Origin: Bacteroidales bacterium Bact_19
GTDB taxonomy: Bacteria; Bacteroidota; Bacteroidia; Bacteroidales; ML635J-15
Length of the DNA stretch: 64,000 nt
Direction: 5' to 3'
Assembly (NCBI GenBank): GCA_001603595.1
Contig: LUZK01000002.1
Location: 2,884 to 66,883 of the forward strand
A program made the translations under genes and the position numbers. A model generated the notes under the pieces. That model saw only the letters and a list, made by a program, of their open reading frames with translations. It was not told the DNA's origin and searched no databases. Positions within the stretch are counted from its first letter, which is position 1. Every line of letters begins with the position of its first letter. This document shows positions 36,457 through 51,956 of this stretch, in pieces.

Positions 36457-36924
36457 TCACCTCGGCCACCCCCTCCAAACCACCAACCCAAACAAAATTC
36501 CCAACCCAATAAGAATAAAGATTCTATAGTTATACAAACCAAACAAATTAAATGCTCCATTTTCGGACTTCGGAGCATTGTTTTTCAATACTACCCTCTC
36601 CACTGGTATTTCCTTCACCACAACAACCGTATCCGCCTCTCTCTCAGCTTCTACATAAACAGTGTCGTGGATGCGATGGAGCTTGAGTTTTAGCTTTTCT
36701 TTGGTGATGATCACTGTGTCGTTTAGTTTGCTTTCGTGGAAGGATGTATCGATCCTGGTTGCGGGGATGATAGTTGTGTCCTGGATGCGGATGGTGTCTT
36801 TGGTTTTGAGCTCTGGATGGAGAGCGATCAAGCGATTAAGTCGCTTTTGTGGAGTACAGGAAATTAAAAATATCGCTGCGGATACTATTAATAATATGTG
36901 TTTCATGGTTCTCATATTTTTCAC
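36457..36924 (-). CDS. lipoprotein with C-terminal TM anchor (last gene of the compact module)
   Basis: Has the lipobox FLISC and the C-terminal TM segment IFILIGLGILFGLVVW. It has a truncated paralog at 26959-27261. Confidence 0.6.
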   Translation of the reverse strand: MKNMRTMKHILLIVSAAIFLISCTPQKRLNRLIALHPELKTKDTIRIQDTTIIPATRIDTSFHESKLNDTVIITKEKLKLKLHRIHDTVYVEAEREADTVVVVKEIPVERVVLKNNAPKSENGAFNLFGLYNYRIFILIGLGILFGLVVWRGWPR

Positions 36925-36967
36925 TTTTTGTTATTTGTTATTTGGAGTTTGTAATTTGGCATTTGCC

Positions 36968-37552
36968 TTAGATGTAGCCATCATCTGCCATCGAGATATA
37001 GTTATTATTAGTAATAATCAAATGATCCAACAAAGCAATATCCATAATTTTGCCTGTATCTCTGACTTTCCTGGTTAAAGTAATATCGGCCTCACTGGGC
37101 TTTAGGTTGCCTGATGGATGATTGTGGCACATAATAATACTTGTGGCCAATGAGTTTAATGCAACACTGAAGAGTAATCTTATATCTGCTACAGTTCCAG
37201 TGATGCCACCCATACTCAAGAAGTGATATCCTAAAATTGAATTCGATCGATCCAAAAGAAGGATGAGCATTTCTTCCCTGGTGTCGATCTGGTTACTCCA
37301 AATTTCTTTGAATACTTTATAAGCATCGGCAGAAGTGCCTATTACCACTCTCTCATGTGGCTTCTGAGTTTTGCTGTAAACGATTTTAACCTTTGGAGGC
37401 TTGTCTGGTACTGTGGCTTTGCCAAGTCCTGCAGTTTGATCCTTCTTTTGTTTTCGAACAATAAGAACTGCTGCAGTAAAGCTGACAAGCAAGACGATTA
37501 TGACAATATACTTTTTCATATTTTCTCTACGAAAGATTTCTGAACTCATCAA
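36968..37552 (-). CDS. RadC-like JAB/MPN domain protein with N-terminal TM anchor
   Basis: The JAMM motif context is IIMCHNHPSGNLKPSEADITLT. The N-terminus contains YIVIIVLLVSFTAAVLIV. Confidence 0.8.
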   Translation of the reverse strand: MMSSEIFRRENMKKYIVIIVLLVSFTAAVLIVRKQKKDQTAGLGKATVPDKPPKVKIVYSKTQKPHERVVIGTSADAYKVFKEIWSNQIDTREEMLILLLDRSNSILGYHFLSMGGITGTVADIRLLFSVALNSLATSIIMCHNHPSGNLKPSEADITLTRKVRDTGKIMDIALLDHLIITNNNYISMADDGYI

Positions 37553-38108
37553 GTTTTACATTCCTGCCTGGGCATGCGGTGGAATTCCCGATAATCTCTT
37601 TGTGGCCGTAAACTGGCAGCTTTTTGTTTAACTTATCATTTATGTACTTGATAAGGTTCTTCAGCGATTTTCTTTGTGCATCGCTGGGTTGCTCAGTCTC
37701 GAAATTGCCGTTGAGAACAATTCCGATTCCGGTAGCATTTGCATTGATTGTGTGCCAACTCATTGATGTCAATTTGTTGGTTTGGTAAACTGTTCCATCA
37801 GGATCAATGCAAAAATGATATGCAATCCTGGGTGCATTTAATCTACCTTTGGGATCGATGTGCCATCGGGCAAAATCGTAAACTGTAAATTTGCCTGCTG
37901 GTGATGCAGAATGATGGATGATTATTCTGTCAATTTTATCAGTACTTCTTTGCTGATACTCGCCTCTGTGTGGCAATTTTTCAATAATATCGTTTATCAT
38001 AGTCATAATTTTTAATTTTCGTAATACAAGAAAAATCACCAGCACGATTGCGCCAGCGACAAACCACTTTTTGTGCTTCTTTACCGTATCGACAACCGGA
38101 ATTATCAT
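37527..38108 (-). CDS. N-acetylmuramoyl-L-alanine amidase (Amidase_2/PGRP fold) with N-terminal TM anchor
   Basis: Contains ...IIIHHSASP..., ...GIGIVLNGNFE... and ...YGHKEI..STACPG..., the zinc ligand contexts of T7-lysozyme-type amidases. Confidence 0.8.
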   Translation of the reverse strand: MIIPVVDTVKKHKKWFVAGAIVLVIFLVLRKLKIMTMINDIIEKLPHRGEYQQRSTDKIDRIIIHHSASPAGKFTVYDFARWHIDPKGRLNAPRIAYHFCIDPDGTVYQTNKLTSMSWHTINANATGIGIVLNGNFETEQPSDAQRKSLKNLIKYINDKLNKKLPVYGHKEIIGNSTACPGRNVKLDEFRNLS

Positions 38109-38500
38109 ACCATTGCTCTGGTTATTCGTGCCATGTCGGTAAGCTCTACAACTTTTTTATAACCATTGCTTAACAAAGCTGCTTCGGTTTGTGGTCCGAA
38201 ATATCCATCCTCACTAATTCCAGCTTTGTAGGCTTTGTTTAAGCCCTTCTGAAGGTTTAAAACATAATTGCCTTTGCAACCAAGCTTGATGGGATAAGCT
38301 CGACATTCCTGGTAATCTATTCCACTCTGAATAGGTGTTGGAGATGGTGATGGATTTACTCCTGATCCAGAACCGCCATTGCTTCCTGCGGATGAATCGG
38401 TTCCAAATCCAAAACGCTGCCTTATTTCTTCTCTTTTCCAGAAAATTATTGCTCCAACGATTGCAATAATTATCAGTACAATTACATTTTGCGATTTCAT
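38105..38500 (-). CDS. membrane-anchored peptidoglycan-binding (PG_binding_1-like) protein
   Basis: Has an N-terminal TM. The C-terminus is ...VLNLQKGLNKAYKAGISEDGYFGPQTEAALL... It overlaps the amidase start by 4 nt. Confidence 0.65.
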   Translation of the reverse strand: MKSQNVIVLIIIAIVGAIIFWKREEIRQRFGFGTDSSAGSNGGSGSGVNPSPSPTPIQSGIDYQECRAYPIKLGCKGNYVLNLQKGLNKAYKAGISEDGYFGPQTEAALLSNGYKKVVELTDMARITRAMV

Positions 38501-38510
38501 TTTGTCTGAT

Positions 38511-38990
38511 TTAATAGGTTATTCCACTTTGTCTTAAAATATCGCGAACTTCTTCCATTTCGCCGCTGTCGAGATCATCGGCCAACCAGCTTTTTAAATC
38601 TCCAGTAAGATCAGCGAAAAATGTTCCTCCATCCTTTTTTCTGGTACCAAAACACTTTTGCAAAAAGTTCCAATCGTCCTGAGTCCTCAAGCGCATCATT
38701 ACATCCATGATGCTTTCTTCTTGAGTTCCTGATCCGTTCATCGAGCTTTCTAGAGTAGTACACATTGAATAATACTCACCTTTTTCAAAAGTGAGATTCT
38801 CTGTGTTCACGTCTATCTTCTCGATATCCTTGTGCAACATCCTGCGGATGGCAAACTCTATCTTGTTTTTGAACAAAAGAATAAGCACAACAATTAGTAT
38901 GATTGTCCAGGCTCTCCGCTTTTTGTCGGGAGGCACTGCATCATACCTGCGTTTTGCTTCTATTCCTGTTGCCAACAAATACTGATACAT
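38511..38990 (-). CDS. hypothetical single-pass membrane protein
   Basis: The ORF has the TM segment WTIILIVVLILLF. The C-terminal helical repeat GSGTQEESIMDVMMRLRTQDDWNFLQKCF is faintly annexin-repeat-like. Confidence 0.5.
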   Translation of the reverse strand: MYQYLLATGIEAKRRYDAVPPDKKRRAWTIILIVVLILLFKNKIEFAIRRMLHKDIEKIDVNTENLTFEKGEYYSMCTTLESSMNGSGTQEESIMDVMMRLRTQDDWNFLQKCFGTRKKDGGTFFADLTGDLKSWLADDLDSGEMEEVRDILRQSGITY

Positions 38991-38993
38991 GGA

Positions 38994-39293
38994 CTAAGAT
39001 TTTAAAATTGTCAATACCCTCTTTACATACTTTGGAAGCCTTAGCATCAGCTGAGCTTCTGATAATTCTTCGCCTTCGTCAAGCATTTCCTTAACTACTG
39101 GTATCAATTCAGGTTTTTCATGTATCATCTCGACTGTGCTAATCAAGTCTTCGTGATTGATGGACTGATTGAGAATTTTAAAAGCATTTAGCTTCTGCGA
39201 AAGTTCCTGCGGATCTTCTGCAGTTAGCTGAATTTCTTTCTGAAGCTCTTTGCCTCCTTCGCTGATGGTGATGGATAATTTGTAAGTTTTCAT
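38994..39293 (-). CDS. hypothetical protein
   Basis: The ORF is tightly packed, with 1-3 nt gaps on both sides. Confidence 0.45.
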   Translation of the reverse strand: MKTYKLSITISEGGKELQKEIQLTAEDPQELSQKLNAFKILNQSINHEDLISTVEMIHEKPELIPVVKEMLDEGEELSEAQLMLRLPKYVKRVLTILKS

Positions 39294-39294
39294 C

Positions 39295-40353
39295 TTATTC
39301 TTGATTTTCTTTGTTCAAGTTTTCGTTATCTTCATTTTCGGGATCGCTGCCAGCAAATTCATCTTCTGGAATAAGAACATCCATGAGCTGCATTCTTTGC
39401 TCAACGGATAATCCTTTTATCATTCCAATCAGATTGTCGAAGGAGTTATCGCTGATGTTTTCCTGATTTCCTTTATCAGTAAATCCATCATCATCAAAAA
39501 CTGATTTTGTGCCTTTCAGATTCGATTCTGGTTTTGACTCATCTTTATCAGATTTGTTTTTCTTTTTGAATGATTTTCTAACAAGATCATCAGCTTCAGA
39601 AAGTCCTAAAGCTGATTTGCCAAGTTCTAGCAATCCACCGGCAATTGTTTTGGTGTATTCCTTAACTGTGCCTAATCCTTCAGCTTTGCGTTCTTCAAAC
39701 TCTTCGAGTTGATTCATCAACTTTCTTTCCTTCTCTTCGATTTCTCGAGCTCGAAGTTCAAGTTTGTAGAGTTCCATTTTCATCTCAAGATCGGCAATTC
39801 TCTTGATGGCTTCTGCCTCTCTTTTTGCTGAAATTTCATCATACTCAGCCTTGATGGAGCGTGTGGCATCGGAAACATTTTTGTCTATAATACCTTGGAG
39901 ATCCTGGTATGAAAAACCCCCGAAGCCGCCCATATTTCCTGTTCCTGTTTGCGGTCGAACAGGAAAGCCCGAAAAACCCGTCGGCATCATTTGTTCTTGG
40001 CCAACCGGATATACGGATGTGCCGCCTAAGAACAAAGGCTGTCCCAAATCATTTCCTTTATACTTATCAAACTTAAGCTTGAAGTATTTTTTTGTGGAGT
40101 TTAGCATATTGCCAGGATTGGATTTCTCTGCGTTTCCAATCACTATTACAAGCTCATGCGGATAATCTTTGTTCGCATGATCAATTAGGAAATTTCGGCA
40201 TTTTTCGACATCTGCCGAAGTTCCCGAAATGATTTCTTTCATCTGGTTCTGCAATGGACGTATGCTCCACAAATCATAAATTGGGATGGTATGACTGCAA
40301 AACCTTTCTGCAAAGTTTTCATCGTAATCGTGTATGTCGAAAATATGTTGCAT
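39295..40353 (-). CDS. hypothetical protein with central coiled coil and acidic tail
   Basis: 352 aa. The coiled-coil segment is ...EAEAIKRIADLEMKMELYKLELRAREIEEKERKLMNQLEEFEERK... Confidence 0.55.
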   Translation of the reverse strand: MQHIFDIHDYDENFAERFCSHTIPIYDLWSIRPLQNQMKEIISGTSADVEKCRNFLIDHANKDYPHELVIVIGNAEKSNPGNMLNSTKKYFKLKFDKYKGNDLGQPLFLGGTSVYPVGQEQMMPTGFSGFPVRPQTGTGNMGGFGGFSYQDLQGIIDKNVSDATRSIKAEYDEISAKREAEAIKRIADLEMKMELYKLELRAREIEEKERKLMNQLEEFEERKAEGLGTVKEYTKTIAGGLLELGKSALGLSEADDLVRKSFKKKNKSDKDESKPESNLKGTKSVFDDDGFTDKGNQENISDNSFDNLIGMIKGLSVEQRMQLMDVLIPEDEFAGSDPENEDNENLNKENQE

Positions 40354-40691
40354 TACTTCACTATTTTGATTCGGACGTATTTTACTGTATATGTAAAGCT
40401 GTGAGATCGTGAGAAATTCACAGCTCCTTTGTGTCTGGTGATAATTTCATAGTCAATATTTTGCGGTGTGCTGATTGTCTTTTGTATTATGTGGCTTTCG
40501 CTTGCGGAATGAAACTCAAGCCAAAAATCGGTTGCAACTTCAATATTGATTTCATGTATCAATACTGTTTCATCTCTGGATACGTCAATCCTGTGAGGAC
40601 TGTCGGCCTGATGATGAGTAATTGTATAGGATGGATTTGATCCTATTTCAGTATCTATCATGCTTTTTAATATGCTGTCTGATGATTTCAT
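40353..40691 (-). CDS. hypothetical small beta-rich protein
   Basis: The ORF's stop overlaps the next gene's start and its start overlaps the upstream gene by 4 nt. Confidence 0.5.
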   Translation of the reverse strand: MKSSDSILKSMIDTEIGSNPSYTITHHQADSPHRIDVSRDETVLIHEINIEVATDFWLEFHSASESHIIQKTISTPQNIDYEIITRHKGAVNFSRSHSFTYTVKYVRIKIVK

Positions 40692-40996
40692 TTTTCAAGG
40701 ATTAAATACACTGATGTTTGTTGTCCCATAAATCCGCTAACTACTCCGCTGATAAGCTCCATGTCGAGATTTTTGTCAAAAATCAGTGGTCTTTTGTTTG
40801 GCGGGCAATCCATCGCTTTGCCGAACTCGAAGCTGTGCAACATTACATTCCTGCCGTTGTCGAAATTCAACGACAGATTGACTCCGCCTGAACAAAAAGC
40901 ACCACGAACTCTCTTAAAATCTTTGACAGTGAACCTAAAGGATTCACTGCCTTGATTTTTCAAATCTCCTCCATATATCTTATGCAAAGAGTACAT
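40688..40996 (-). CDS. hypothetical small beta-rich protein
   Basis: The ORF has overlapping junctions on both sides. Confidence 0.5.
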   Translation of the reverse strand: MYSLHKIYGGDLKNQGSESFRFTVKDFKRVRGAFCSGGVNLSLNFDNGRNVMLHSFEFGKAMDCPPNKRPLIFDKNLDMELISGVVSGFMGQQTSVYLILEK

Positions 40997-41381
40997 TTAC
41001 TATCTCTTCTAAATTGTTGGTTAATAATACTTGCACCTGAAGATTGTAATTGGCTGCCCAATCTGGATCGCGGAAACGAATTATCATTTCGTCGCCTGAA
41101 ACCTGAATCGGTTTAAACCAGGAGAAAAATCTTTTATTTGGTGCTACTGAATCGGAACACATCAAGTTGGCAGCTTCGAATTGCTCGGGCAAAACATCTG
41201 CTCCTTTTACTTTCACCTGTTCCAGAACCGAATTTTCACCAGCATTAGCATTTGAGATTGCAATGCCGACAAGATATTTATAATCTTTGTCAAGCTCTTC
41301 CTTCAGCTCATGAACTTTGTCGTTTACTATGACTTTATCAATACACTGAATGATAAAGCTTGTTTTACTCAATTCTGTCAT
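40980..41381 (-). CDS. hypothetical small beta-rich protein
   Basis: The ORF has a 17-nt overlap with the downstream gene. Confidence 0.5.
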   Translation of the reverse strand: MTELSKTSFIIQCIDKVIVNDKVHELKEELDKDYKYLVGIAISNANAGENSVLEQVKVKGADVLPEQFEAANLMCSDSVAPNKRFFSWFKPIQVSGDEMIIRFRDPDWAANYNLQVQVLLTNNLEEIVNVLFA

Positions 41382-41383
41382 AA

Positions 41384-41644
41384 TTATTTCCCTCCTGATT
41401 TTAATCTTTCAGCCTTGATCTTAATTTCCTCAATCTCTTCGGTGTGCTTTTCCAATATCTTTGAATGAAGCTGCACCGACTTTGTGAGATACTCAATATC
41501 CTTCTGACTGCCTTTTATTGCAAGAGCAAGCTCTTGAATAATCTTTTTTAGTTCCCGAACATTGGCAACAAAAAAAGTGAGTGTGACGCCGTTTATCGAC
41601 AGCAACACACTGATTATGATCCCGAATACAGTTTCACTAGTCAT
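41384..41644 (-). CDS. hypothetical single-pass membrane protein with coiled-coil tail
   Basis: I chose the internal start MTSETVFGIIISVLL... This gives an 8-nt overlap with the upstream ORF instead of a 92-nt out-of-frame overlap. Confidence 0.45.
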   Translation of the reverse strand: MTSETVFGIIISVLLSINGVTLTFFVANVRELKKIIQELALAIKGSQKDIEYLTKSVQLHSKILEKHTEEIEEIKIKAERLKSGGK

Positions 41645-41891
41645 TTTGGTTGTCGTCTTTAATGTTTGTACTTCCGGTTCTTCGGTATAAAATTGCTTCA
41701 GCAAATTTCTGGAGTGCTTTTGGTGCAAATCCTGCGGTTATCAGCAGCGCATCCAACTCAAAGTATATCTTTCCTTCAATCATTTGCCAGGTGATGATGA
41801 CAAATGCAAAAATCAATGTCATCAACGATTGCAAACGCATCAGGGAATCTATTCCTTTACGCTCTTCCAGATATCTTTTGATTAAACTCAT
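41637..41891 (-). CDS. hypothetical small membrane protein (holin-like topology)
   Basis: 84 aa with hydrophobic segments LMTLIFAFVIITW and ALLITAGFA. Confidence 0.45.
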   Translation of the reverse strand: MSLIKRYLEERKGIDSLMRLQSLMTLIFAFVIITWQMIEGKIYFELDALLITAGFAPKALQKFAEAILYRRTGSTNIKDDNQND

Positions 41892-41911
41892 ACCTTGATT
41901 TGGTTTTGGTA

Positions 41912-42280
41912 TTATTCAAAATCTTGATTAAAAGTCGTTGTTTGACCTTTTTCAATTTTTACATTTTGAGTTTTTGTGACACCTTCAAACGTAACACTTA
42001 CAGTATAGTCTCCTGCAACAAGCTCCATCTGATAAAAACCATTATCATCTGTTATTGCAGTAAATTTTGTTCCAGATCCATTCACAGCTTGTACTTCAAG
42101 ATTTTTTAGCGGGATAGATACTTTGGTAATTTTCCCACTTAATTTTCCCTTGTTTAACACTTCGCTGATTCCACCAACGCCGCTAACAGCATTGTATAAA
42201 TCAGGATTTTGGCGGATTGATCTTGCCAAATCGGCTCTTGCCTCTTTCGAAAGGGCTTTTATCGCACTCTTTAAATCCAT
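41912..42280 (-). CDS. protein with CarboxypepD_reg-like beta-sandwich
   Basis: Contains ...LSGKITKVSIPLKNLEVQAV...TDDNGFYQMELVAGDYTVSV... Confidence 0.55.
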   Translation of the reverse strand: MDLKSAIKALSKEARADLARSIRQNPDLYNAVSGVGGISEVLNKGKLSGKITKVSIPLKNLEVQAVNGSGTKFTAITDDNGFYQMELVAGDYTVSVTFEGVTKTQNVKIEKGQTTTFNQDFE

Positions 42281-42342
42281 AGCTCTTTGTTTTTAATGAT
42301 TAAAAAATAACAAAGAGGTCCGGTTGCCCGGATCCTCATTCG

Positions 42343-42984
42343 TTAGTAACTCTTTACCTCAGTGCCGATAAGTTTCAGCTTCACAAAACCACTCATGCTT
42401 GTTGGAGCATCTTCGATGTCGAAAGAGATGGTTTTCTTAGGCACAATCAGCTTTGGGTTGTTGAGGATGATGATTCCGAAATCTCTGTTTACATTGTAAC
42501 CAAACACAGGTGCCTGGAACATGTCAACAGGGTTTTTACTCATTATCTCGCGAGTTGCGATCTTAAAGGTGAACACGGCATTTGCCAAGAAATCTGGAAA
42601 GAGTTCGTCGAAACGTCCAGTTGCTCCACTTCTGTATTGCAAACTAATTGCAGATAAAAGGAAGAACTGATTCTCTGCCAGCTCGGCATCGTCTATGTTA
42701 CGAAGCCCGGCTTCACTCTTTTCGTTTTTCTTGATGATGTCGGTACTGGTTCCGGCAAGTTCCCTGATCACAAAATATTCCTTGTCGGAAATTTGTGCTC
42801 TGTCTTCCTTCAACATCTTTTGCATGTTGGGAGGAAGATTCGGAATTCTCTCGATCATCTGTTTTCTGAACAAACTTGCACCAAGTTTTGAAAACTCTGC
42901 TGCCTTTTTTCTACTCTCGGCTCCAACTTCTAAGTTGCCGCTTAATCCGCTGAGGATGATTTCCTCACTTGTCATTTCGCTCAT
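42343..42984 (-). CDS. hypothetical protein, first gene after the iteron-rich intergenic region
   Basis: 213-aa ORF with a beta-rich C-terminal half. No motif recognised. Confidence 0.55.
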   Translation of the reverse strand: MSEMTSEEIILSGLSGNLEVGAESRKKAAEFSKLGASLFRKQMIERIPNLPPNMQKMLKEDRAQISDKEYFVIRELAGTSTDIIKKNEKSEAGLRNIDDAELAENQFFLLSAISLQYRSGATGRFDELFPDFLANAVFTFKIATREIMSKNPVDMFQAPVFGYNVNRDFGIIILNNPKLIVPKKTISFDIEDAPTSMSGFVKLKLIGTEVKSY

Positions 42985-43026
42985 TTTAGTAATTATTTTA
43001 ATTAAACATTAGTAAGTAATTTCTTT

Positions 43027-43157
43027 GCATGGCGCATGGCGCATAGGGCATGGGGCTGTTTGTGCTAAAATTTTACATTTTTCTTTTTGCATAATACTAT
43101 TTTTGGCACAAATGTCCTGCTCACTGCTATTTGAGCTCCATGCTCCATGCTCCATGC
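43027..43157. repeat. inverted arrays of the heptamer GCATGGN
   Basis: GCATGGC GCATGGC GCATAGG GCATGGG lies at 43027-43054. Three CTCCATG units (the reverse complement of CATGGAG) lie at 43136-43156, separated by about 80 bp of AT-rich spacer. Confidence 0.75.
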
Positions 43158-43200
43158 TTTTCATTATCACAATTTTATTTTTAAAATCAACTTTCCACTT

Positions 43201-43243
43201 AAGTACTTTAGGCACTTTAGGCACTCCAAGTACTCTAGGCACT
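43201..43243. promoter_or_regulatory. iteron-like direct repeats
   Basis: TAGGCACT occurs at 43209, 43218 and 43236. AAGTACT occurs at 43201 and 43228. All lie in the 262-bp non-coding gap inside the otherwise gapless module. Confidence 0.6.
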
Positions 43244-43246
43244 TTT

Positions 43247-43498
43247 TTACCTGTAAAGCTCACTCGAAGCCTGTCTGATGCAGTTTTTCCACTTCATCTT
43301 TGGATGTGTTTCCCTGATTTTCTTTGCCCTTTCGGTAATCATTTTAAATCTGGATGACACTTCTGCATTTTTCTTTTTGCCTGCAAGTGTTCTATACTTT
43401 TTGGGCTTAGCTGTGATGCTTTTTCTTTTCATTCCGCTTACTGGTGTTTTGGTCTCAACTACGCTTTTTTTTTTACTGCTTTCCAGGCTTCTTTCCAA
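43247..43498 (-). CDS. small, extremely basic hypothetical protein
   Basis: 83 aa and Lys/Arg-rich (KKKS...KRKSITAKPKKYRTLAGKKKN...). It overlaps the end of the 732-aa gene by 40 nt. Confidence 0.45.
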   Translation of the reverse strand: MERSLESSKKKSVVETKTPVSGMKRKSITAKPKKYRTLAGKKKNAEVSSRFKMITERAKKIRETHPKMKWKNCIRQASSELYR

Positions 43499-45657
43499 GC
43501 TTTTGATCCTCCTCCTTTTTCTTTAGCAATTTGTCGCACTTGACTGAACATTTGATTATATTCGTGTGCTGCTGCTATCTGCTTTGGAGATAGTGGTCTG
43601 GCATAAGCTTCGGTGAAAATCTTTTTGTAATATTTCTTTCGGTGAACTTCATCATAAGGCTTTTTATCCTTTTTGATTTCTTCACGAACGAGTGTTGCGT
43701 AAGCTTTGCTGTTCAAGCCCTGGCGTTTGAGGTAGTTTGCCTGCTTTTGAGAGATTGGAGCTTCACCAAGTCCTCTGAGCGATCGCTGGCGAATTTTCCA
43801 GATTACCAATGCTGCAATTCCAATGGTGACAATAACTGCCACAATTATCAGCATAGTTTTGTTTTTGATCAAGAAATACTTGAATCTGCTGATTTCGTTA
43901 CCGTCTTTGTCACGGTAGATTTTTGTCTCTTTACCGTTCTCATCAATAACGGTTTCAACACTTACACCTGACTTTTCGTCGGTCTGAACATTGGATGTTG
44001 CAGCAGCTGCTCCATCTGGTGTTTCTTTTTCTGATCCTGTTGCCATATACTTTGATTTTGTTTGTGTATTACTTGCCGGACTTGGAGCCTCTTTTGTTTC
44101 GTCAACGATGCTGCCGTCCGGTCTTTTCAATTTCAGATTTTTAACTATCGCTATAATGCTGCCGAATACCTGGGTCACGGCAGCAATTATCGCTGGAGCA
44201 ATCCCGAGCTGTCCTTTTAGTCCGGCTTTTCTTGCTCCACGACCATTCATAACCATAGTCTTAAAATAGGCTTTGTCGCCTCCTAATGAATGCCACTTTT
44301 GTTCTGCCTTATCCTTTGCATCAACAAACTGTTTCCATTCTGCTGTGGTGTAACCAAGCTTTTTAGCATCGGCTTCACTGGCATAACCAATGGCGAGTTT
44401 CTCGGCCATAAACAATGCGTTTGCTCTCAGAAAAGCTTCCATTGACTTTCTTAATGTGAAAGTTGCTGGATTGTACTTATTAAGTGCATGACCAACTTTT
44501 GCAATCTTTGGATTGTTTTCTTTAAACTTCTGAACGCCTTGTTTTACTTTGGCTCCGATTTTCTTCAGAAGGCCGCCAGATTTTGGAGCATTAGGATTTT
44601 TCCGTAGCTTGATGGCTGCAAGTCCTTCAAGATCGTCTGGCGAATACTTGTCGCTGATCAGTTCTTGAAGCATATCGTTGTCGGCCAAAACTTTGAGATA
44701 ATACAATTCTTCATCGCCATCGCCTGACAATCCTTTTACAGATTCGTCGAGTCCAAATTGAATGGCTTTGTAGAAATTCTGGTAGAGTGTTCCCTTGCTG
44801 ATGGCGTTGCGGATGGCTTCATCACGGCTTTCGTCATCGGCAAAGCTGCTGATGATTTCGTTAACAAGAGCAAGTTCTTGTTGGTTGTCGTTAAGTTGTG
44901 ACATCTCGGATGGACTGGTCACTTCTTTTTCGAGTGTTTGCTTTGCATCCACCAATTGTTTTAGGATGATATTGCGCTGTAGTTCCGACCCAGTTATCAC
45001 TGAATCGAAATCATCTTCTGGACCAACAATTGCAACATTGCCAAGTATGCCCTGGACAATCTCAAGTTGGTCGTCCTCCACATAAGCACCGGACAGGTTC
45101 TCCGGATCAAAATTCTGTGTGAGCTCGCTGATCATGTCAGCGGAAACTGAGCCTAATTCTTCTAATCTCATGTCAATAATTATTTGATTCTTAATCGGTT
45201 TTGCTTCAAAATTGAAATATGGAATTTCTGGAACGCAGTCAATCACGTATCTTGTTCCATCGCTGCTGTATGCTACTGGGTAAATATGTTGCCACTGACT
45301 TTCTTTTTTATAAGCAGCGATAACAAGCTCGTGTTTGTGGCCAAGATTTGTCAGGATTGCTGAAATGAGTATGCTCATATCATCGCAATCGCCAATCTGA
45401 TCGTAAAGTGTTCGTTGTGGGGTGCGCAATTGTTCTCTTCCTGGCTGATCGTTTTGATAACGGATGTTTTGACGGACAAAGTTCCAGATACCTTCGAAAG
45501 TTGACTTGCAATTATTTGCCTGAAGATTGAACGCCAGTTCCTGAACTGCTGGATAATTCTCTCCAACTATTCTCTTGATGGCATCAATGGTGTCGTAAAC
45601 ATCTGCATATTGCTTGAGTGTTGTACTTTTTCCCGAAACTGTATAGTCTTTCATCAT
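43459..45657 (-). CDS. large membrane protein with N-terminal transglutaminase-like cysteine protease core
   Basis: The Cys context is YDQIGDCDDMSILISAILTNLGH, the His context is ...WQHIYPV... and the Asp context is ...YVIDCV... TM segments are GIAPAIIAAVTQVFGSIIAIV and MLIIVAVIVTIGIAALVIW. The tail is very basic. Confidence 0.7.
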   Translation of the reverse strand: MMKDYTVSGKSTTLKQYADVYDTIDAIKRIVGENYPAVQELAFNLQANNCKSTFEGIWNFVRQNIRYQNDQPGREQLRTPQRTLYDQIGDCDDMSILISAILTNLGHKHELVIAAYKKESQWQHIYPVAYSSDGTRYVIDCVPEIPYFNFEAKPIKNQIIIDMRLEELGSVSADMISELTQNFDPENLSGAYVEDDQLEIVQGILGNVAIVGPEDDFDSVITGSELQRNIILKQLVDAKQTLEKEVTSPSEMSQLNDNQQELALVNEIISSFADDESRDEAIRNAISKGTLYQNFYKAIQFGLDESVKGLSGDGDEELYYLKVLADNDMLQELISDKYSPDDLEGLAAIKLRKNPNAPKSGGLLKKIGAKVKQGVQKFKENNPKIAKVGHALNKYNPATFTLRKSMEAFLRANALFMAEKLAIGYASEADAKKLGYTTAEWKQFVDAKDKAEQKWHSLGGDKAYFKTMVMNGRGARKAGLKGQLGIAPAIIAAVTQVFGSIIAIVKNLKLKRPDGSIVDETKEAPSPASNTQTKSKYMATGSEKETPDGAAAATSNVQTDEKSGVSVETVIDENGKETKIYRDKDGNEISRFKYFLIKNKTMLIIVAVIVTIGIAALVIWKIRQRSLRGLGEAPISQKQANYLKRQGLNSKAYATLVREEIKKDKKPYDEVHRKKYYKKIFTEAYARPLSPKQIAAAHEYNQMFSQVRQIAKEKGGGSKAWKEAWKAVKKKA

Positions 45658-45741
45658 AAAATCAATTTATTTTCAGCGGTATGATGGAACCTCCATCTCT
45701 AATCGACAACATTTTTTTATTTGTCATTTTTAATGGAGGTT

Positions 45742-46299
45742 TCATAATAGCAGATAGTCTTCGTTAACACTAAGTGTGATTCCCTCAGCCTGGATAAAGC
45801 CAATAAGTTTTACTTTTAGCTGTTTCAGATGCACTTGATTCCAGTATGTTGCTGGTTTTGAAACCACCTGCCATACTGTTGCATCTGGCGGCAACACTTC
45901 CGATTCCTTAAAAAGCGACAATGAATTGAATAGGTCAACATTGTATTCCAATGGAATATTTGTTACCTGTCGATTTTTAAGAACTAAGTTTCCTGGAAGT
46001 ATGTTTGTTTGCTCGGCTACCAGCTTCTGGCTCTTTGGCGAATAGCAGTCCAAACTAAGTTGATTGAGAGTGTAATCTTTACCTGAGAAATTGCGGATCT
46101 CGATGTATCCTTTCATTTTAAAACCACTGGTGAAAATGTCCACCAAATCTTTAAAGCTTTCAAGCTTCTTCGCAGCTTTAAGCGAGGTATCTCCAAGCTT
46201 CAGCTTTTCGGTGTCCTTCACCCTCTTAAAAAACTTCCAGGCTATTCCGAAAGTCAGAATAACCGCTACAATAATCAGGATATGTTTCAGCTTTGGCAT
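45742..46299 (-). CDS. hypothetical N-terminally anchored protein (LEA_2/beta-sandwich-like?)
   Basis: Has the TM segment ILIIVAVILTFGIAW. The remainder is beta-rich. Confidence 0.5.
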   Translation of the reverse strand: MPKLKHILIIVAVILTFGIAWKFFKRVKDTEKLKLGDTSLKAAKKLESFKDLVDIFTSGFKMKGYIEIRNFSGKDYTLNQLSLDCYSPKSQKLVAEQTNILPGNLVLKNRQVTNIPLEYNVDLFNSLSLFKESEVLPPDATVWQVVSKPATYWNQVHLKQLKVKLIGFIQAEGITLSVNEDYLLL

Positions 46300-46425
46300 A
46301 TTCGCATTAAATTCTTAATGCAATAATATGGTGAGTGAAATTAACGCTTTCCGTTAAATGAGGTTATTGGTGAGTAATGGGGAGTTATTTCTGGTAAGGA
46401 GTGGTGAAATAAGAATAGTAGCCGA

Positions 46426-47397
46426 TTATTCATCATATTCAAATAAATTAAAATCTATTTTTTGATATGGTGAATGATTATTTGCATTCAAAACAGTATA
46501 CTTTTTTAATTTATCTAAATTCTCTTGCTTTATTTCTTGTAATAAGTCTGGAGATAATCCCCAATTCTCAATATGTCCAACAAACAACCTTGTTAGTTGT
46601 TTTTCAAACTCTGTTTCGTCAAGTCCTTCCCAACTATTCACATATTCCTTTATCCAGTCATTTACGTATTCATTGCAATACCCAACTATTATATTTGTAT
46701 TGTTGGAATATGGTATTACATGAATAAACACATCATTTAGAGGTTCAACTTGTCTTGGGTTGGTTATTAAATTTTCTATTGGGCTAAAAACTGCAGAACC
46801 GTATATGTCTAAAAACGGATACTTGTACACTTTGAATGTAAATCTTGAAGTTGCATCTTGCAATTCCTCTTCAAAAATCTTCTTGATTCTGTCCAAATCT
46901 TTAACTCCAAGCTCATTTCCATCCTTTGAAATCCTAATTGAATCTAAACCAGCATCACCTCTTAAAGTTTCCGCATTTAAAATCCTTGAGAATTGTTCAA
47001 TGTTAACTAGTTTTTTTCGTATTTCAGCACAAACTACTCTGTAACTTAACAATAACTGGACTTGATATGATTCCAAATCAATGGGGTGCGTTTCAACTTC
47101 CTTAAATATTGAAGAGTCATGGTTATTACAAAATATCGGGAGTGAAAATGCCTTCCGTTTTCCAATACGTTTCATTTCAAATGGTGGCATATTCTTTTTC
47201 CACGAAAAAGGGTCAGTCGGTTTGAGTTCAATTAAATGACCGTCAACAGAAACGTTATCTAAAATGCCATTTTCTTGTAACATGTGTGAATTTATTGCAT
47301 TCTTTTCGCATCCATCAATTAAGCATTTCCATGTTTTAGAATGTACATTCTTAATAATATTTGCAATTACTTGCTGTTTTTTTGAAGGTCTTGACAT
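46426..47397 (-). CDS. hypothetical protein with N-terminal C-x4-C-x6-SH and CNNHD motifs
   Basis: 323-aa ORF containing WKCLIDGCEKNAINSHML and ...FSLPIFCNNHDSSIFKEVE... It is isolated by 126-bp and about 280-bp non-coding flanks. Confidence 0.55.
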   Translation of the reverse strand: MSRPSKKQQVIANIIKNVHSKTWKCLIDGCEKNAINSHMLQENGILDNVSVDGHLIELKPTDPFSWKKNMPPFEMKRIGKRKAFSLPIFCNNHDSSIFKEVETHPIDLESYQVQLLLSYRVVCAEIRKKLVNIEQFSRILNAETLRGDAGLDSIRISKDGNELGVKDLDRIKKIFEEELQDATSRFTFKVYKYPFLDIYGSAVFSPIENLITNPRQVEPLNDVFIHVIPYSNNTNIIVGYCNEYVNDWIKEYVNSWEGLDETEFEKQLTRLFVGHIENWGLSPDLLQEIKQENLDKLKKYTVLNANNHSPYQKIDFNLFEYDE

Positions 47398-47678
47398 AAT
47401 TTTCTTTATTTGAACCTAACTTCTCTATTTACACACAAATTAAATAACATTTGTAAACCAATTTTCATTTATTTAATGTTTTTTTTCAAGCCTTACAAGA
47501 GCATTTTTTAAATCAATTATAACTCCAAATTATAAATATGTATTTATAAAATTGAAATGCATTTGCTAAACAAAATTTTTTCCATAATGCTTAATTATTT
47601 ACGGCCTGTAAATATAGTATTTCCATATCAAAATGTAACGCTATTGTGAAAAAAATAATGAACTTTTATAAACAGCCT

Positions 47679-47823
47679 TTATCTAAGAAACTCCTTAATC
47701 ATCTTTACCTGCTTCGGCATTAAAATCCTTAACCTCTGTTTTCCTGGGCTGAGTTTGAGGAGTTGTTTGCGGATTGGAGTGAGCCAATTGTAGATGGTGT
47801 TGCAAATAGTTGGACTACAAATA
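47679..47823 (-). pseudogene. 5'-truncated copy A of the DUF4248-like gene 3' end
   Basis: The minus-strand translation is ...TIYNWLTPIRKQLLKLSPGKQRLRILMPKQVKMIKEFLR*. There is no start codon. Confidence 0.8.
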
Positions 47824-48193
47824 CAATTTAAAAGGGTACGCGCAAAGCCTACCTACCATTTACCCAATCTCCAAAAATAGAATAAGTTAAAATTAAAAAA
47901 AAATAGGAAATACTCTTAATTATTGTAGTCAATCCCCTTTTTTGTGCTTGTGTGGCTTAAGCGAAGGTGTATTCCCTGGAGTTTCCTTATTGTCTCTTTG
48001 TCGCCTATCAGGCTTACCTGTTGACTTAGCGGTTCGTTTTGGACCTGTTTTTATTCCCATAGCATTAAATGTTTAATTTGTAATCCATAAATAATTTCCA
48101 AAATACAACATGCAACTAACAAAATATCTATATTTTATCTGACTTCAATAATTGTTAAAAAAAACCAATACAGAAGGTTAATTTATTCAGTAT

Positions 48194-48739
48194 TTACCAT
48201 TTATCATCTTCTGCTAACTTAGTAAAATTAAAAATATTACTAAAAGTGAAATTTAAGATAAAACTTGGATTTTTGACAAATGCAGATTTCATAACATTTT
48301 GACCATTTTTTAAAGCAAATGTTTCCAAAGTAGTTCTTTCACCTTCTTTTGATAACCCATCGTCATATTTCTGGGTAAGCATAATATTTTTCAAAGTCAC
48401 CCTATACCTGTTTTCTTTAAATTCAATTATGACAAATCCATCAAAAAAACTTCTCGCTATGTACATTGGACATACCATTTCACTAAAACCTGCACCTTTA
48501 AAATCTGCATCTATTGGCTTTAAATTCCCATAAATTTTATTTTCTTCTATTTGATAATTTTCTAAAAATCCAGACTCTTTTACCAAAGTAATTAATTCAA
48601 TTTCAGTTAAGTCAGTCTCAAATACTTTCTGCCAAAAAACAAAATTATTCTCAGCGACAAAATTGTTGCTCGTATCTTGAGCAGATGTATCGAAAATTAT
48701 AAGAATAAAAGTCAATACTAGTAATATTTTCACTTTCAT
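48194..48739 (-). CDS. secreted hypothetical protein
   Basis: Has the signal peptide MKVKILLVLTFILIIFDTSAQ. Confidence 0.5.
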   Translation of the reverse strand: MKVKILLVLTFILIIFDTSAQDTSNNFVAENNFVFWQKVFETDLTEIELITLVKESGFLENYQIEENKIYGNLKPIDADFKGAGFSEMVCPMYIARSFFDGFVIIEFKENRYRVTLKNIMLTQKYDDGLSKEGERTTLETFALKNGQNVMKSAFVKNPSFILNFTFSNIFNFTKLAEDDKW

Positions 48740-48818
48740 AATGACCCAATTTTTTAATTAGTATAAAGTTCTAATTCGAAATAAATGTAACAAACTTTTA
48801 CAAGTGTTATTATTGAAT

Positions 48819-49682: not shown

Positions 49683-49807
49683 ATTAAAATGTAATAAATG
49701 GTTAACAATTAAATAAATTCTGTTCAAAATTACCAACTTATAAACTATTTACAAAATATAAATTGATAAATTTTTATAATAAATGCAACTTCTGAAAATG
49801 CTATTTT

Positions 49808-49962
49808 TCACCCCAAAAACTCCCAAATCATCTTCACCTGCTTCGGCATCAAAATCCTTAACCTCTATTTTCTCGGGCTCATTTCGAGGAGTTGTTTGCG
49901 GATTGGAGTAAGCCAATTGTAGATGGTGCGAGGCTCTGTGATTCTCGGACTATAAATCCGAG
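49808..49962 (-). pseudogene. 5'-truncated, stop-containing copy B of the DUF4248-like gene 3' end
   Basis: The minus-strand translation is ...TEPRTIYNWLTPIRKQLLEMSPRK*RLRILMPKQVKMIWEFLG*. Confidence 0.8.
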
Positions 49963-49989
49963 GGAGCTGGGCAAAGTATTCCACAATGA

Positions 49990-51186: not shown

Positions 51187-51189
51187 ATG

Positions 51190-51495: not shown

Positions 51496-51535
51496 AATTT
51501 TTATTTTGTTTGTTACATTCTTAATAATTATTATC

Positions 51536-51637
51536 TTATCCCAAAACACTCCTAATCATTTTCACCTGCTTCGGCATCAAAATCCTTAACCGTTGTTTTC
51601 CTGGGCTGAGTTCGAGAAGTTGTTGGCGGATTGGAGT
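51536..51637 (-). pseudogene. 5'-truncated copy C of the DUF4248-like gene 3' end
   Basis: The minus-strand translation is ...TPIRQQLLELSPGKQRLRILMPKQVKMIRSVLG*. Homology stops at TPIR. Confidence 0.8.
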
Positions 51638-51955: not shown

Positions 51956-51956
51956 T

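What the first reader, a model, noticed from the sequence alone, without database searches (positions are those of the whole stretch)
36457..46299. Compact 9.8-kb, 17-gene unidirectional module with phage-like lysis genes but no recognisable phage hallmark genes
All ORFs are on the minus strand. Junctions are minimal or overlapping: 37527-37552, 38105-38108, 40353, 40688-40691, 40980-40996, 41637-41644 and 43459-43498. There is only one internal non-coding gap, and it is filled with iterons. The only recognisable products are an Amidase_2 endolysin-type amidase, a PG_binding_1 protein, a RadC/JAB protein, a CarboxypepD_reg-like beta-sandwich and a transglutaminase-like 732-aa membrane protein. 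At least eight products carry a single TM helix, and four consecutive small proteins (102-133 aa) plus the 213-aa protein are beta-rich. I found no Walker A motif, terminase, portal, tail, integrase or HUH Rep motif. Size, gene density and the abundance of small membrane proteins recall tailless, internal-membrane phages (PM2-like corticoviruses, FLiP-like finnlakeviruses, both about 9-10 kb). I cannot see the double-jelly-roll capsid or packaging ATPase that define those groups. It could be a divergent or novel prophage or virus-derived particle, a satellite, or a non-viral envelope-remodelling operon.
Basis: partly seen in the sequence, partly recalled or inferred. Interest (0 to 1): 0.8.

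Follow-up and report, generated by a model that had tools for sequence, protein, structure and literature searches.

The report
Hallmark-less virus-like mobile element, Bacteroidales
The 17-gene block is real and is the conserved core of an apparently undescribed mobile element of Bacteroidota that probably builds tailless, membrane-containing virus-like particles from jelly-roll proteins, yet carries no recognisable replication, integration or DNA-packaging gene.

Summary
In detail: 17 tightly packed minus-strand ORFs (36457-46299), nine with TM helices, GC 39.7% against about 32% around them, and no terminase, portal, integrase, Rep or Walker A motif.

The block is fully syntenic in about 60 Bacteroidales/Marinilabiliales metagenome and MAG contigs and is under strong purifying selection (dN/dS 0.05-0.27).

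The most conserved protein (213 aa) and the 133-aa protein are predicted jelly-roll sandwiches. Their best-TM structural neighbours are capsid proteins of the membrane-containing viruses SH1 and HHIV-2, but the scores are weak. The 732-aa protein's N-terminus matches a virion protein of the membrane-containing phage SSIP-1. The peptidoglycan hydrolase is swapped (amidase or glucosaminidase) between copies, and the CarboxypepD_reg protein evolves fastest.

The real unit is larger. It starts at an outward-facing DEDD exonuclease gene (54044-54541) with a small HTH gene, followed by a cargo hotspot holding defence genes. Copies are 90-92% identical in unrelated or 72%-identical flanks, and several occur per genome, so the element moves.

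A distant relative of the core sits on a 53-kb circular plasmid of the cultured Persicobacter psychrovividus.

There are no hits in IMG/VR, PHROGs, isolated phages or PADLOC. No free circular form, att site or particle is shown. My verdict is a new virus-like element whose mechanism is inferred, not demonstrated.

The parts
54044..54541 (+). DEDD-type 3'-5' exonuclease (Pfam RNase_H_2, PolB-exonuclease-like). It faces outward and marks the left edge of the mobile unit.
   Evidence: Pfam PF13482. DxE and YxxxD motifs are visible in the translation. It lies upstream of the module on the opposite strand in 22 of 24 long loci. Homology between copies starts at its stop codon.
53741..53923 (-). Small HTH_17/DUF4248-like DNA-binding protein (60 aa), divergent from the exonuclease gene.
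   Evidence: ORF. Homologues in L010, L012 and L014 hit HTH_17. It is conserved upstream of the module in many loci.
46405..53740 (-). Cargo hotspot of four cassettes: hcp 51957-53588; 119 aa plus PDC-S26 candidate defence gene 49990-51186; 305 aa plus 181 aa; 323 aa at 46426-47397. Each is preceded by a copy of about 100-125 nt of the HTH gene's 3' end (51537-51638, 49810-49933, 47688-47799).
   Evidence: Repeat copies are 90-92% identical, and the two aligned (49.8 kb and 47.7 kb) start at the same point. PDC-S26 scores E = 1e-94. Other loci carry different cargo in the same place: type II R-M, NOV_C, RHS, T9SS proteins.
46300..46404 (-). Conserved leader/promoter region of the module, with three CC(C)AtTAAC-like boxes and two short palindromes.
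   Evidence: Homology among 10 loci starts sharply at TTACCAGAAAT.
45742..46299 (-). g1: N-terminal TM anchor plus beta-rich domain (185 aa).
   Evidence: Syntenic in all loci. An analogue with the same architecture precedes the g2 homologue in L070.
43459..45657 (-). g2: 732-aa membrane protein with an N-terminal transglutaminase-like (papain-fold) domain. I infer a particle-associated cell-wall or entry enzyme.
   Evidence: DUF553, E = 6.6e-11. Residues 9-154 match SSIP-1 structural protein gp34, E = 2e-10, and a Geoglobus pleomorphic virus protein. Core gene shared with distant modules, E = 2e-38, and with plasmid pPP10, E = 1.5e-32.
43247..43498 (-). g3: 83-aa very basic protein (pI 10.7). 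I infer a DNA-binding protein.
   Evidence: Conserved in all loci. It sits immediately upstream of the variable repeat arrays.
42985..43246 (-). Intergenic repeat region: 9-mer array plus two mutually inverted 7-mer arrays.
   Evidence: TRF. Hairpin z = -3.9. Many loci have arrays at this position with different units, and they are absent in L010, L012, L014 and L009.
42343..42984 (-). g4: 213-aa protein, the most conserved of the module. N-terminal helices plus a single jelly-roll; candidate major shell protein.
   Evidence: 70 homologues at 52-93% identity. dN/dS 0.049. AF2 pLDDT 67, pTM 0.62. Foldseek neighbours are mostly SJR capsid proteins, with best TM to SH1 6qt9_g. The family has 240 representative clusters.
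41912..42280 (-). g5: CarboxypepD_reg beta-sandwich, the fastest-evolving protein. Candidate spike or receptor-binding protein.
   Evidence: Pfam, E = 1.6e-11. Weak PHROG tail-fibre hits. 29-42% identity between loci where g4 is 74-92% identical. Highest dN/dS, 0.17-0.47.
41384..41891 (-). g6 and g7: two small single-TM proteins (84 aa and about 87-114 aa). g7 has a C-terminal coiled coil.
   Evidence: Weak Rz-like spanin hit for g7.
40353..41381 (-). g8 (133 aa), g9 (102 aa) and g10 (112 aa): small beta-sandwich proteins. g8 is a confident jelly-roll-like fold; candidate minor shell or vertex proteins.
   Evidence: g8 AF2 pLDDT 83. Best TM 0.54 to HHIV-2 6h82_b; also SPV1, CCMV and Ena. A g8 homologue directly follows the g4 homologue in distant modules, E = 1e-13 to 6e-17. 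g8-g9 similarity is weak. That g9 and g10 are paralogues is inferred only from similar C-terminal strand patterns.
39295..40353 (-). g11: 352-aa protein with a globular N-terminal domain, Gly-rich linker, long coiled coil and acidic tail. Candidate scaffold or assembly protein.
   Evidence: 55-80% identical across loci. A coiled-coil protein of the same size occupies the same position in distant modules.
38511..39293 (-). g12 (99 aa, acidic, helical) and g13 (159 aa, TM plus C-terminal domain).
   Evidence: A g13 homologue is present in pPP10, E = 1e-12.
36457..38500 (-). Membrane-anchored wall-remodelling/egress cassette: g14 (TM + PG_binding_1), g15 (TM + Amidase_2), g16 (TM + RadC/JAB), g17 (155 aa, N- and C-terminal TM).
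   Evidence: Pfam and TM segments. Amidase_2 is replaced by Glucosaminidase at the same position in other copies. Some copies have an extra diverged RadC paralogue.
26961..27235 (-). Second, diverged copy of the 3' half of g17. Its last 26 nt are identical to 36459-36484. With g17 it brackets a 9.5-kb segment of T9SS-cargo genes.

Best explanation
The block is the particle-forming and egress core of a previously uncharacterised family of mobile, virus-like elements of Bacteroidota.

Shown:
- The core genes are g1, g2, g4, g8-type small beta-sandwiches, a coiled-coil protein, g13 and a peptidoglycan hydrolase. In this window they form a 17-gene operon-like unit under strong purifying selection.
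- That unit is tied to an outward-facing DEDD exonuclease gene and a small HTH gene.
- The unit occurs in several copies per genome, in unrelated chromosomal contexts.
- It has an internal cargo hotspot loaded with defence genes.
- A distant version lies on a 53-kb circular plasmid of a cultured Persicobacter.

Inferred mechanism:
- g4 (N-terminal helices plus a single jelly-roll) forms the shell of a tailless particle assembled on a lipid vesicle.
- The vesicle is studded with the many single-pass membrane proteins (g1, g2, g6, g7, g13).
- g8-g10 are minor or vertex jelly-roll proteins, and g11 is a scaffold.
- g5 is the fast-evolving receptor-binding spike.
- g2 is a particle-borne papain-fold enzyme used at entry, like its homologue in SSIP-1 virions.
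- The basic g3 recognises the adjacent repeat arrays on the element's DNA.
- g14-g17 (PG-binding, amidase or glucosaminidase, JAB, TM protein) open the wall for release.

No replication, integration or packaging gene is recognisable. The 10-kb Bacteroidales form is therefore most likely either dependent on host or helper functions (satellite-like or semi-domesticated), or it uses proteins of unknown type.
For: - Synteny of all 17 genes in about 24 long loci and 44 metagenome contigs.
- dN/dS of 0.05-0.27 for every gene.
- Module GC is 3-11 points above the flanks in nearly all loci.
- Patchy distribution: 13 loci among 185,579 species genomes, with 2-3 copies in two MAGs.
- Copies are 90-92% identical while their flanks are unrelated or 71.6% identical, and the edge is sharp at the exonuclease stop codon.
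- g4 and g8 are predicted jelly-rolls. Their neighbours include SJR capsid and penton proteins of SH1, HHIV-2, SPV1, CCMV, circoviruses and the FLiP penton.
- The g2 N-terminus is homologous to SSIP-1 structural protein gp34.
- Non-orthologous replacement of the PG hydrolase.
- g5 is the most divergent gene.
- Repeat arrays with copy-specific units lie next to the basic protein gene.
- The cargo hotspot holds defence genes, as in temperate phages and satellites.
- The distant modules L068-L070 share g2, g4 and g8 in the same order and add an Mtd-like receptor-binding fibre and a lysin.
- Persicobacter plasmid pPP10 carries g2-, g4- and g13-like genes with Rep/ParAB, and a second rearranged copy lies on another replicon.
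Against: - No terminase, portal, packaging ATPase, Rep, primase, polymerase or integrase.
- No att site, tRNA target, terminal repeat or conserved non-coding end was found.
- In the loci examined whose contigs were long enough to show context, the module had other sequence on both sides; no contig of about 10 kb looked like a free circle, though terminal overlaps were not checked.
- No relative in IMG/VR, PHROGs or 50,697 isolated-phage records.
- The fold matches are weak: E = 1e-2 to 1e-5, TM 0.3-0.54. They also include non-viral jelly-rolls such as Ena pilins, GOLD domains and furin P-domains.
- The g4 model is of only moderate confidence (pLDDT 67).
- The repeat arrays are absent from some intact copies.
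Confidence: 0.55

Rival explanations
1. Domesticated virus-derived particle system, similar to a gene transfer agent or viriform. The host keeps the structural and lysis genes of an old membrane-containing virus to make particles that carry random or host DNA, or no DNA, for its own benefit.
For: - Replication, integration and packaging genes are completely absent.
- Every gene is under strong purifying selection.
- In the long-contig loci examined the module had other sequence on both sides.
- It is always next to the same exonuclease gene.
- L037 and L041 share an orthologous upstream flank.
Against: - Element copies are much more similar (92%) than their shared flank (72%), or they sit in unrelated flanks.
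- There are 2-3 divergent copies per genome.
- Distribution is very patchy.
- GC is consistently foreign.
- The internal defence-cargo hotspot and copy-specific repeat arrays are traits of selfish elements rather than of a vertically inherited host operon.
Confidence: 0.2
2. Non-viral cell-envelope apparatus carried on a mobile island. The jelly-roll proteins would build a surface fibre, lattice or compartment, as the Ena jelly-roll pilins do. The TM-anchored PG-binding, amidase and JAB proteins would locally remodel the wall for its assembly.
For: - Ena1C, Ena2A and Ena3A are among the top Foldseek hits for both g4 and g8.
- Nine of 17 proteins are membrane-anchored.
- No virus hallmark gene is present.
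- T9SS-cargo genes are frequent neighbours.
Against: - g2 is homologous to a virion structural protein of SSIP-1 and to a pleomorphic-virus protein.
- The hydrolase type is swapped freely, as expected if wall breakage rather than a particular bond matters.
- The distant modules carry an Mtd-like receptor-binding fibre typical of phages.
- Best TM scores are to capsid components of membrane-containing viruses.
- A very basic protein plus DNA repeat arrays sit inside the operon.
Confidence: 0.15
3. A complete temperate virus of the known FLiP/phiCjT23 (Finnlakeviridae) or PM2 (Corticoviridae) type, diverged beyond sequence recognition.
For: - The host phylum, the size (about 10 kb), the gene density and the many small membrane proteins resemble FLiP and phiCjT23.
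- phiCjT23 prophages also lack an integrase and use XerC/D.
Against: - No tblastn similarity to any isolated phage, including these.
- g4 is predicted to have one jelly-roll after a helical N-terminus, not the double jelly-roll of the 239-aa phiCjT23 MCP.
- No HUH or rolling-circle Rep motif.
- No repeated or dif-like sequence was seen flanking the block, although a dedicated dif search was not made.
Confidence: 0.05
4. A multi-gene anti-phage defence or abortive-infection system, since it lies in a defence island.
For: Neighbours include R-M systems, PDC-S26, GmrSD, retron-type RT, OLD and NOV_C.
Against: - No PADLOC hit for any module protein tested.
- 17 co-conserved genes dominated by beta-sandwich and membrane proteins do not resemble any known defence system.
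- The defence genes are the variable cargo, not the conserved part.
Confidence: 0.05

Closest known systems
Vertical single-jelly-roll, internal-membrane viruses (kingdom Helvetiavirae: SH1/HHIV-2/HCIV-1 sphaerolipoviruses, Simuloviridae, Thermus phage P23-77)
   Same: - Small jelly-roll shell proteins of about 130-230 aa, one with an N-terminal helix like the VP9 penton protein.
- Many small membrane proteins.
- Best TM-score structural neighbours of g4 (SH1 6qt9_g) and g8 (HHIV-2 6h82_b).
   Different: - No FtsK/HerA-type packaging ATPase.
- No sequence similarity.
- Host is Bacteroidota.
- Much smaller gene set.
- The orientation of the barrels in a shell is unknown.
Salisaeta icosahedral phage 1 (SSIP-1)
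   Same: - Bacteroidota-related host (Salisaeta).
- Internal membrane.
- Its virion protein gp34 is homologous to the g2 N-terminal transglutaminase-like domain, E = 2e-10.
- There is a weak, non-significant profile alignment of g4 to its structural protein gp45.
   Different: SSIP-1 is a 43.8-kb lytic phage with 57 genes. No other gene is detectably shared.
FLiP and phiCjT23 (Finnlakeviridae) and their Flavobacterium prophages
   Same: - Bacteroidota hosts.
- Genomes of 7.6-9.2 kb.
- Internal membrane.
- No packaging ATPase.
- Integrase-less prophages.
   Different: They have a double jelly-roll MCP, a rolling-circle Rep and dif/XerCD flanks. None of these was found here, and there is no sequence similarity.
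Gene transfer agents and other domesticated viriforms
   Same: Structural and lysis genes without replication or integration genes, kept under purifying selection.
   Different: GTAs are tailed (HK97-fold) and vertically inherited at one locus. This element is multi-copy, patchy, compositionally foreign and carries cargo.
Hallmark-less virus-like elements and vesicle-forming plasmids (Charybdis elements, bioRxiv 10.1101/2025.08.03.668216; haloarchaeal plasmid pR1SE, recalled from my own knowledge)
   Same: - A conserved putative structural module plus a variable accessory module.
- No virus, plasmid or transposon hallmark gene.
- A relative resides on a plasmid.
   Different: Different hosts (archaea), sizes and proteins. 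No homology was tested or expected.

Membership tests
Finnlakeviridae (FLiP, phiCjT23) | [quoted passage not shown] | tested here: not met
   The g4 AF2 model has a helical N-terminus plus one 8-stranded sandwich. No protein in the block resembles FLiP or phiCjT23 by tblastn. The model's confidence is moderate.
Finnlakeviridae (FLiP, phiCjT23) | Rolling-circle (HUH) replication initiation protein | tested here: not met
   No Pfam, PHROG or NCBIfam Rep hit and no HUH motif.
Finnlakeviridae (FLiP, phiCjT23) | Circular ssDNA genome; prophages flanked by dif (XerC/D) sites | tested here: inconclusive
   No direct or inverted repeat brackets the block. A dedicated dif-motif search was not made. The nucleic-acid type cannot be tested here.
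Corticoviridae (PM2-like) | DJR MCP plus FtsK/HerA-type packaging ATPase (Walker A/B) | tested here: not met
   No credible Walker A motif in any frame of the module, and no ATPase family hit.
Helvetiavirae (Sphaerolipoviridae, Simuloviridae, Matshushitaviridae) | Two single jelly-roll major capsid proteins | tested here: inconclusive
   g4 and g8 are predicted jelly-rolls with best TM to SH1 and HHIV-2 capsid chains, but E-values are 2e-3 to 1.4e-2 and TM is 0.39-0.54. In distant modules the two genes are adjacent.
Helvetiavirae (Sphaerolipoviridae, Simuloviridae, Matshushitaviridae) | A32-like/FtsK-HerA packaging ATPase | tested here: not met
   Absent from the module. The plasmid relative pPP10 has a 174-aa RecA-like P-loop protein of unknown role.
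Integrated temperate phage (generic prophage) | Integrase or transposase with att or terminal repeats | tested here: not met
   No recombinase family hit. No att-like repeats at the two ends. No tRNA target.
Integrated temperate phage (generic prophage) | Presence/absence polymorphism and mobility between genomes | tested here: met
   Copies are 90-92% identical in unrelated or 72%-identical flanks. There are multiple copies per genome. Only 13 loci occur among 185,579 species.
Gene transfer agent / domesticated viriform | Single vertically inherited locus congruent with host phylogeny | tested here: not met
   Multi-copy, with the element younger than its flanks and foreign GC.
Gene transfer agent / domesticated viriform | Particles package random host DNA | not testable with these tools
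   Needs particle purification and sequencing.
Known anti-phage defence systems (PADLOC) | Match of the component proteins to a defence-system model | tested here: not met
   Zero hits for the eight module proteins tested. Only cargo genes hit: PDC-S26 and type II R-M.
Ena-type jelly-roll pili | DUF3992 subunits of about 110-120 aa with an N-terminal Cys-containing connector, in a spore-former | tested here: not met
   No Pfam hit for g4 or g8. The fold similarity is generic jelly-roll, TM 0.3-0.5. The host is Bacteroidota. The Cys connector was not examined.

The most novel reading that the evidence does not exclude
The module defines a new lineage of tailless, membrane-containing viruses, or of plasmid-borne virus-like transfer particles, in Bacteroidota. 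Their shell would be built from a helix-plus-single-jelly-roll protein and small jelly-roll partners. They would replicate, integrate and package DNA without any known hallmark enzyme. There would be a full-size episomal form (Persicobacter pPP10-like, L068-L070-like) and a reduced 10-kb chromosomal form that captures defence cassettes at a recombination hotspot in its HTH gene.
Probability: 0.35. Interest if true: 0.85.

Novelty: new variant of a known kind. Interest (0 to 1): 0.72.

Why it matters
If these elements make particles, they add a virus-like lineage that current discovery pipelines do not recognise. It is absent from IMG/VR, PHROGs and the isolated-phage records searched, and I found no description of it in the literature searched.

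Single-jelly-roll, membrane-containing viruses with solved capsid structures come mainly from haloarchaea and Thermus. This lineage would extend them to anaerobic Bacteroidales and Marinilabiliales.

It would also be a case of virion formation without a recognisable packaging ATPase, Rep or integrase. That bears on how minimal a virus or a virus-derived transfer agent can be.

The element is also a vehicle for defence systems, which sit in a defined internal hotspot.

The question is directly testable, because a relative of the core sits on a plasmid of a culturable strain, Persicobacter psychrovividus NBRC 101262.

Tried and rejected
- **Terminal inverted repeats.** The 13-mer TTTGGAGGGGGTG occurs in inverted orientation at both ends in the window and in the L036 group. 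It is missing from the right end of most loci, including the closest relative, and it lies in coding sequence. Dropped.
- **att or dif-type direct repeats flanking the block.** None found.
- **tRNA integration target.** None found.
- **IMG/VR scans** with g4, g2, the g4 alignment and two distant family members. No relatives.
- **tblastn against isolated phages** with g4, three distant g4 homologues and a pPP10 module protein. Nothing.
- **Profile searches of PDB sequences** with g4 and g8. Nothing meaningful.
- **hhalign of g4 against SSIP-1 gp45, gp46 and ORF35.** Only a non-significant alignment to gp45.
- **Internal paralogy by hhalign.** Only RadC/gX is convincing; g8/g9 is weak.
- **The GLLELGKS 'Walker A' in g11.** It lies in a coiled coil and is not credible.
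- **Empty-site search through exact look-up of flanking window proteins.** Not on record.
- **The gap as a conserved replication origin.** Not supported, because intact copies lack it.
- **PADLOC and NCBIfam on module proteins.** Nothing.
- **The last homologue search with the diverse alignment** returned only 7 proteins because of the candidate cap.

Full report
**Observation.** The window is low-GC Bacteroidota DNA; the flanking genes carry T9SS Por_Secre_tail domains. The segment is a GC island, 39.7% against about 32% on both sides. Pfam recognises only five things: DUF553/Transglut_core in the 732-aa protein, CarboxypepD_reg, PG_binding_1, Amidase_2 and RadC. PHROGs adds only lysis and RadC families plus weak tail-fibre hits for the CarboxypepD_reg protein. 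NCBIfam and PADLOC add nothing. Nine products have a TM-like segment, and there is no credible Walker A or HUH motif in any frame. The 262-nt gap at 42985-43246 holds three short tandem arrays. Two of them are mutually inverted and pair as a long hairpin (z = -3.9).

**The block is a conserved, functional unit.**
- The 213-aa protein has 70 database homologues at 52-93% identity, none annotated.
- Fetching their contigs, a scan of 185,579 species genomes and a metagenome scan gave about 60 loci.
- In every locus long enough to judge, all 17 genes are present in the same order.
- Against the closest relative (L010), every gene has dN/dS of 0.05-0.27. The 213-aa protein is the most constrained (0.049, 95% amino-acid identity at about 80% nucleotide identity). 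The CarboxypepD_reg, PG-binding and last proteins are the least constrained.
- At the hydrolase position, Amidase_2 is replaced by Glucosaminidase in about half the copies.
- Some copies have an additional diverged RadC paralogue.

**What the proteins look like.**
- AlphaFold2 with a 28-sequence alignment models the 213-aa protein as about 60 helical residues followed by one eight-stranded sandwich (pLDDT 67, pTM 0.62).
- Foldseek against the PDB returns mostly single-jelly-roll capsid proteins: CCMV/BMV, circoviruses, satellite viruses, luteovirids, the FLiP penton and PBCV-1. The best TM is to a capsid chain of the membrane-containing archaeal virus SH1. Non-viral Ena jelly-roll pilins also appear.
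- Against BFVD there are 36 hits below 1e-3, many of them CRESS-DNA capsids.
- The 133-aa protein gives a confident sandwich (pLDDT 83). Its best TM (0.54) is to chain b of HHIV-2, with SPV1, CCMV, Ena, GOLD and furin P-domains also listed. No hit has E below 1e-3.
- In sphaerolipoviruses the penton protein is a jelly-roll with an N-terminal helix that contacts the membrane. That is the architecture predicted for the 213-aa protein.
- These matches show a jelly-roll fold and are compatible with capsid roles, but they do not prove them.
- Independently, residues 9-154 of the 732-aa protein match gp34, an annotated structural protein of the membrane-containing Salisaeta phage SSIP-1 (E = 2e-10), and a protein of a Geoglobus pleomorphic virus.

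**The true extent of the element.**
- Homology between copies begins sharply about 100 nt upstream of the first gene, at a conserved leader. It fades inside the variable C-terminus of the last gene.
- Gene-cluster analysis of 24 long loci showed a 165-aa RNase_H_2 (PolB-exonuclease-like DEDD) gene on the opposite strand upstream of the module in nearly all of them.
- That gene is either directly adjacent (64-400 nt) or separated from the module by 1.5-7.7 kb of unrelated genes.
- A small HTH_17/DUF4248-like gene usually lies between them.
- The intervening genes are typically defence systems: type II R-M in L010, NOV_C, RHS, and in this window the PDC-S26 candidate.
- In the window the exonuclease is at 54044-54541 and the HTH gene at 53741-53923.

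**Evidence for mobility.**
- Three contigs from one metagenome (L036, L037, L041) and L039 share 90-92% nucleotide identity from the exonuclease stop codon to the last module gene.
- Their flanks are unrelated (L036) or only 71.6% identical (L037 against L041).
- Two MAGs carry two and three divergent copies.
- Only 13 loci were found among 185,579 species representatives, all in Bacteroidales or Marinilabiliales MAGs.
- Module GC exceeds flank GC in almost every locus.

These are properties of a horizontally moving element, not of a vertically inherited operon. The mechanism of movement is not visible:
- There is no recombinase.
- There is no tRNA target.
- There are no end repeats.
- An apparent 13-nt terminal inverted repeat in the window is not general.

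**A wider family and a cultured relative.**
- An exhaustive profile search found 240 representative clusters related to the 213-aa protein, 200-285 aa long.
- Two distant members lie in modules (L068-L070) that share homologues of g2 (E = 2e-38), g4 (E = 2e-21) and g8 (E = 1e-13 to 6e-17) in the same order, with g8 directly after g4.
- Those modules also have a TM-plus-beta protein like g1, two further small beta proteins, a coiled-coil protein of g11's size, a Glucosaminidase/M15 lysin, an Mtd-like receptor-binding fibre and a strawberry-notch-type helicase. They have no PHROG hits either.
- tblastn against PLSDB found the family on plasmid pPP10 (53.2 kb, circular) of Persicobacter psychrovividus NBRC 101262.
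- There, g2-, g4- and g13-like genes sit with the same helicase, a small RecA-like ATPase, an amidase, a DUF4248 gene, two Rep genes, ParAB and a toxin-antitoxin pair.
- A second, rearranged copy at 93-97% identity lies on the 1.07-Mb replicon pPP1.
- The conserved core therefore exists both on an autonomous replicon and, in Bacteroidales, as a compact chromosomal form lacking the helicase and ATPase.

**The repeat-filled gap.** Arrays of 7-9-nt tandem repeats occur at the same position, between the basic 83-aa protein gene and the 213-aa protein gene, in many copies. The repeat unit differs from copy to copy, and in the window and L003 the arrays are arranged as inverted sets. Four intact copies, including the closest relative, have only about 40 nt there. 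The arrays are thus real but dispensable. Co-variation with a DNA-binding protein, possibly the adjacent basic protein, is my inference and is untested.

**Interpretation.** The best-supported reading (about 0.55) is a particle-forming, virus-like mobile element with these inferred roles:
- g4 forms the shell.
- g8-g10 are minor or vertex proteins.
- g11 is a scaffold.
- g5 is the diversifying receptor-binding protein.
- g2 is a particle-borne entry enzyme.
- The single-pass proteins populate an internal or enveloping membrane.
- g14-g17 are the release cassette.

All functional assignments beyond fold and family are inferences. Because no replication, integration or packaging function is recognisable, the 10-kb form may be helper-dependent or host-dependent.

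The rivals are:
- a domesticated GTA-like system (0.2);
- a non-viral envelope structure on a mobile island (0.15);
- an unrecognisably diverged FLiP- or PM2-type phage (0.05);
- a defence system (0.05).

**Comparison with known groups.** The block fails the defining tests for Finnlakeviridae and Corticoviridae: no double jelly-roll, no Rep, no ATPase. It meets only the fold criterion, inconclusively, for Helvetiavirae. It fails the vertical-inheritance criterion for GTAs. I found no description of it in the literature searched. The Charybdis elements are a conceptual parallel only.

**Limits.**
- The fold matches are weak.
- The g4 model is of moderate confidence.
- No free or circular form was seen.
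- Host identities are MAG-level.

Noticed in passing
window 47688-47799, 49810-49933, 51537-51638 and 53741-53870: Four copies of the last 100-130 nt of the small HTH gene, one of them inside the intact gene. They are 90-92% identical, and the 49.8-kb and 47.7-kb fragments aligned start at the same nucleotide. Each precedes a different cassette: hcp; 119 aa plus PDC-S26; 305 plus 181 aa; 323 aa. This looks like serial cassette capture by recombination at one site. Other loci show a single copy.
   Followed up: partly
window 26961-27235 and 36459-36484: A diverged (86%) second copy of the 3' half of the last module gene, ending in a 26-nt exact repeat. It lies 9.5 kb downstream and, with g17, brackets four T9SS-cargo genes (27265-35806). 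L039 has a similar partial copy 1.2 kb downstream of its last gene.
   Followed up: partly
window 49990-51186: The 398-aa PDDEXK_4 protein matches the PADLOC candidate defence family PDC-S26 (E = 1e-94). A ResIII/endonuclease restriction-type gene lies at 56037-58694. The surroundings are a defence island.
   Followed up: partly
window 51957-53588: A hybrid-cluster protein (Prismane, hcp) gene sits as a cassette inside the element's cargo region. In L036 an hcp homologue lies on the other side of the exonuclease gene.
   Followed up: no
window 47929-48082: A 154-nt stretch encoding a small basic ORF is 95% identical to L028:3781-3932, upstream of another copy of the module. It may be a shared small cargo gene or a repeat.
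   Followed up: no
window 46300-46404 (and alignment A3): The conserved leader contains three CC(C)AtTAAC-like boxes and two short palindromes (TTAACGGAAAGCGTTAA and GCATTAAGAATTTAATGC) just upstream of the first gene. These are possible operator sites.
   Followed up: no
L071/L072 (Persicobacter plasmid pPP10) and L073 (pPP1): The g2-like gene of pPP10 spans the record origin and is therefore missing from the PLSDB gene table. The pPP1 copy of the module is interrupted by an insertion of about 6 kb holding a 1295-aa minus-strand ORF.
   Followed up: partly
L003-L005, L009: Retron-type or group-II-type RVT_1 genes, OLD-family nucleases and a PAPS_reduct/AAA_15 pair flank other copies of the element.
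   Followed up: no
window 36968-37552: The RadC/JAB protein carries an N-terminal TM or signal-anchor segment, as do the PG-binding and amidase proteins. This is unusual for RadC and suggests an extracytoplasmic JAB peptidase.
   Followed up: no
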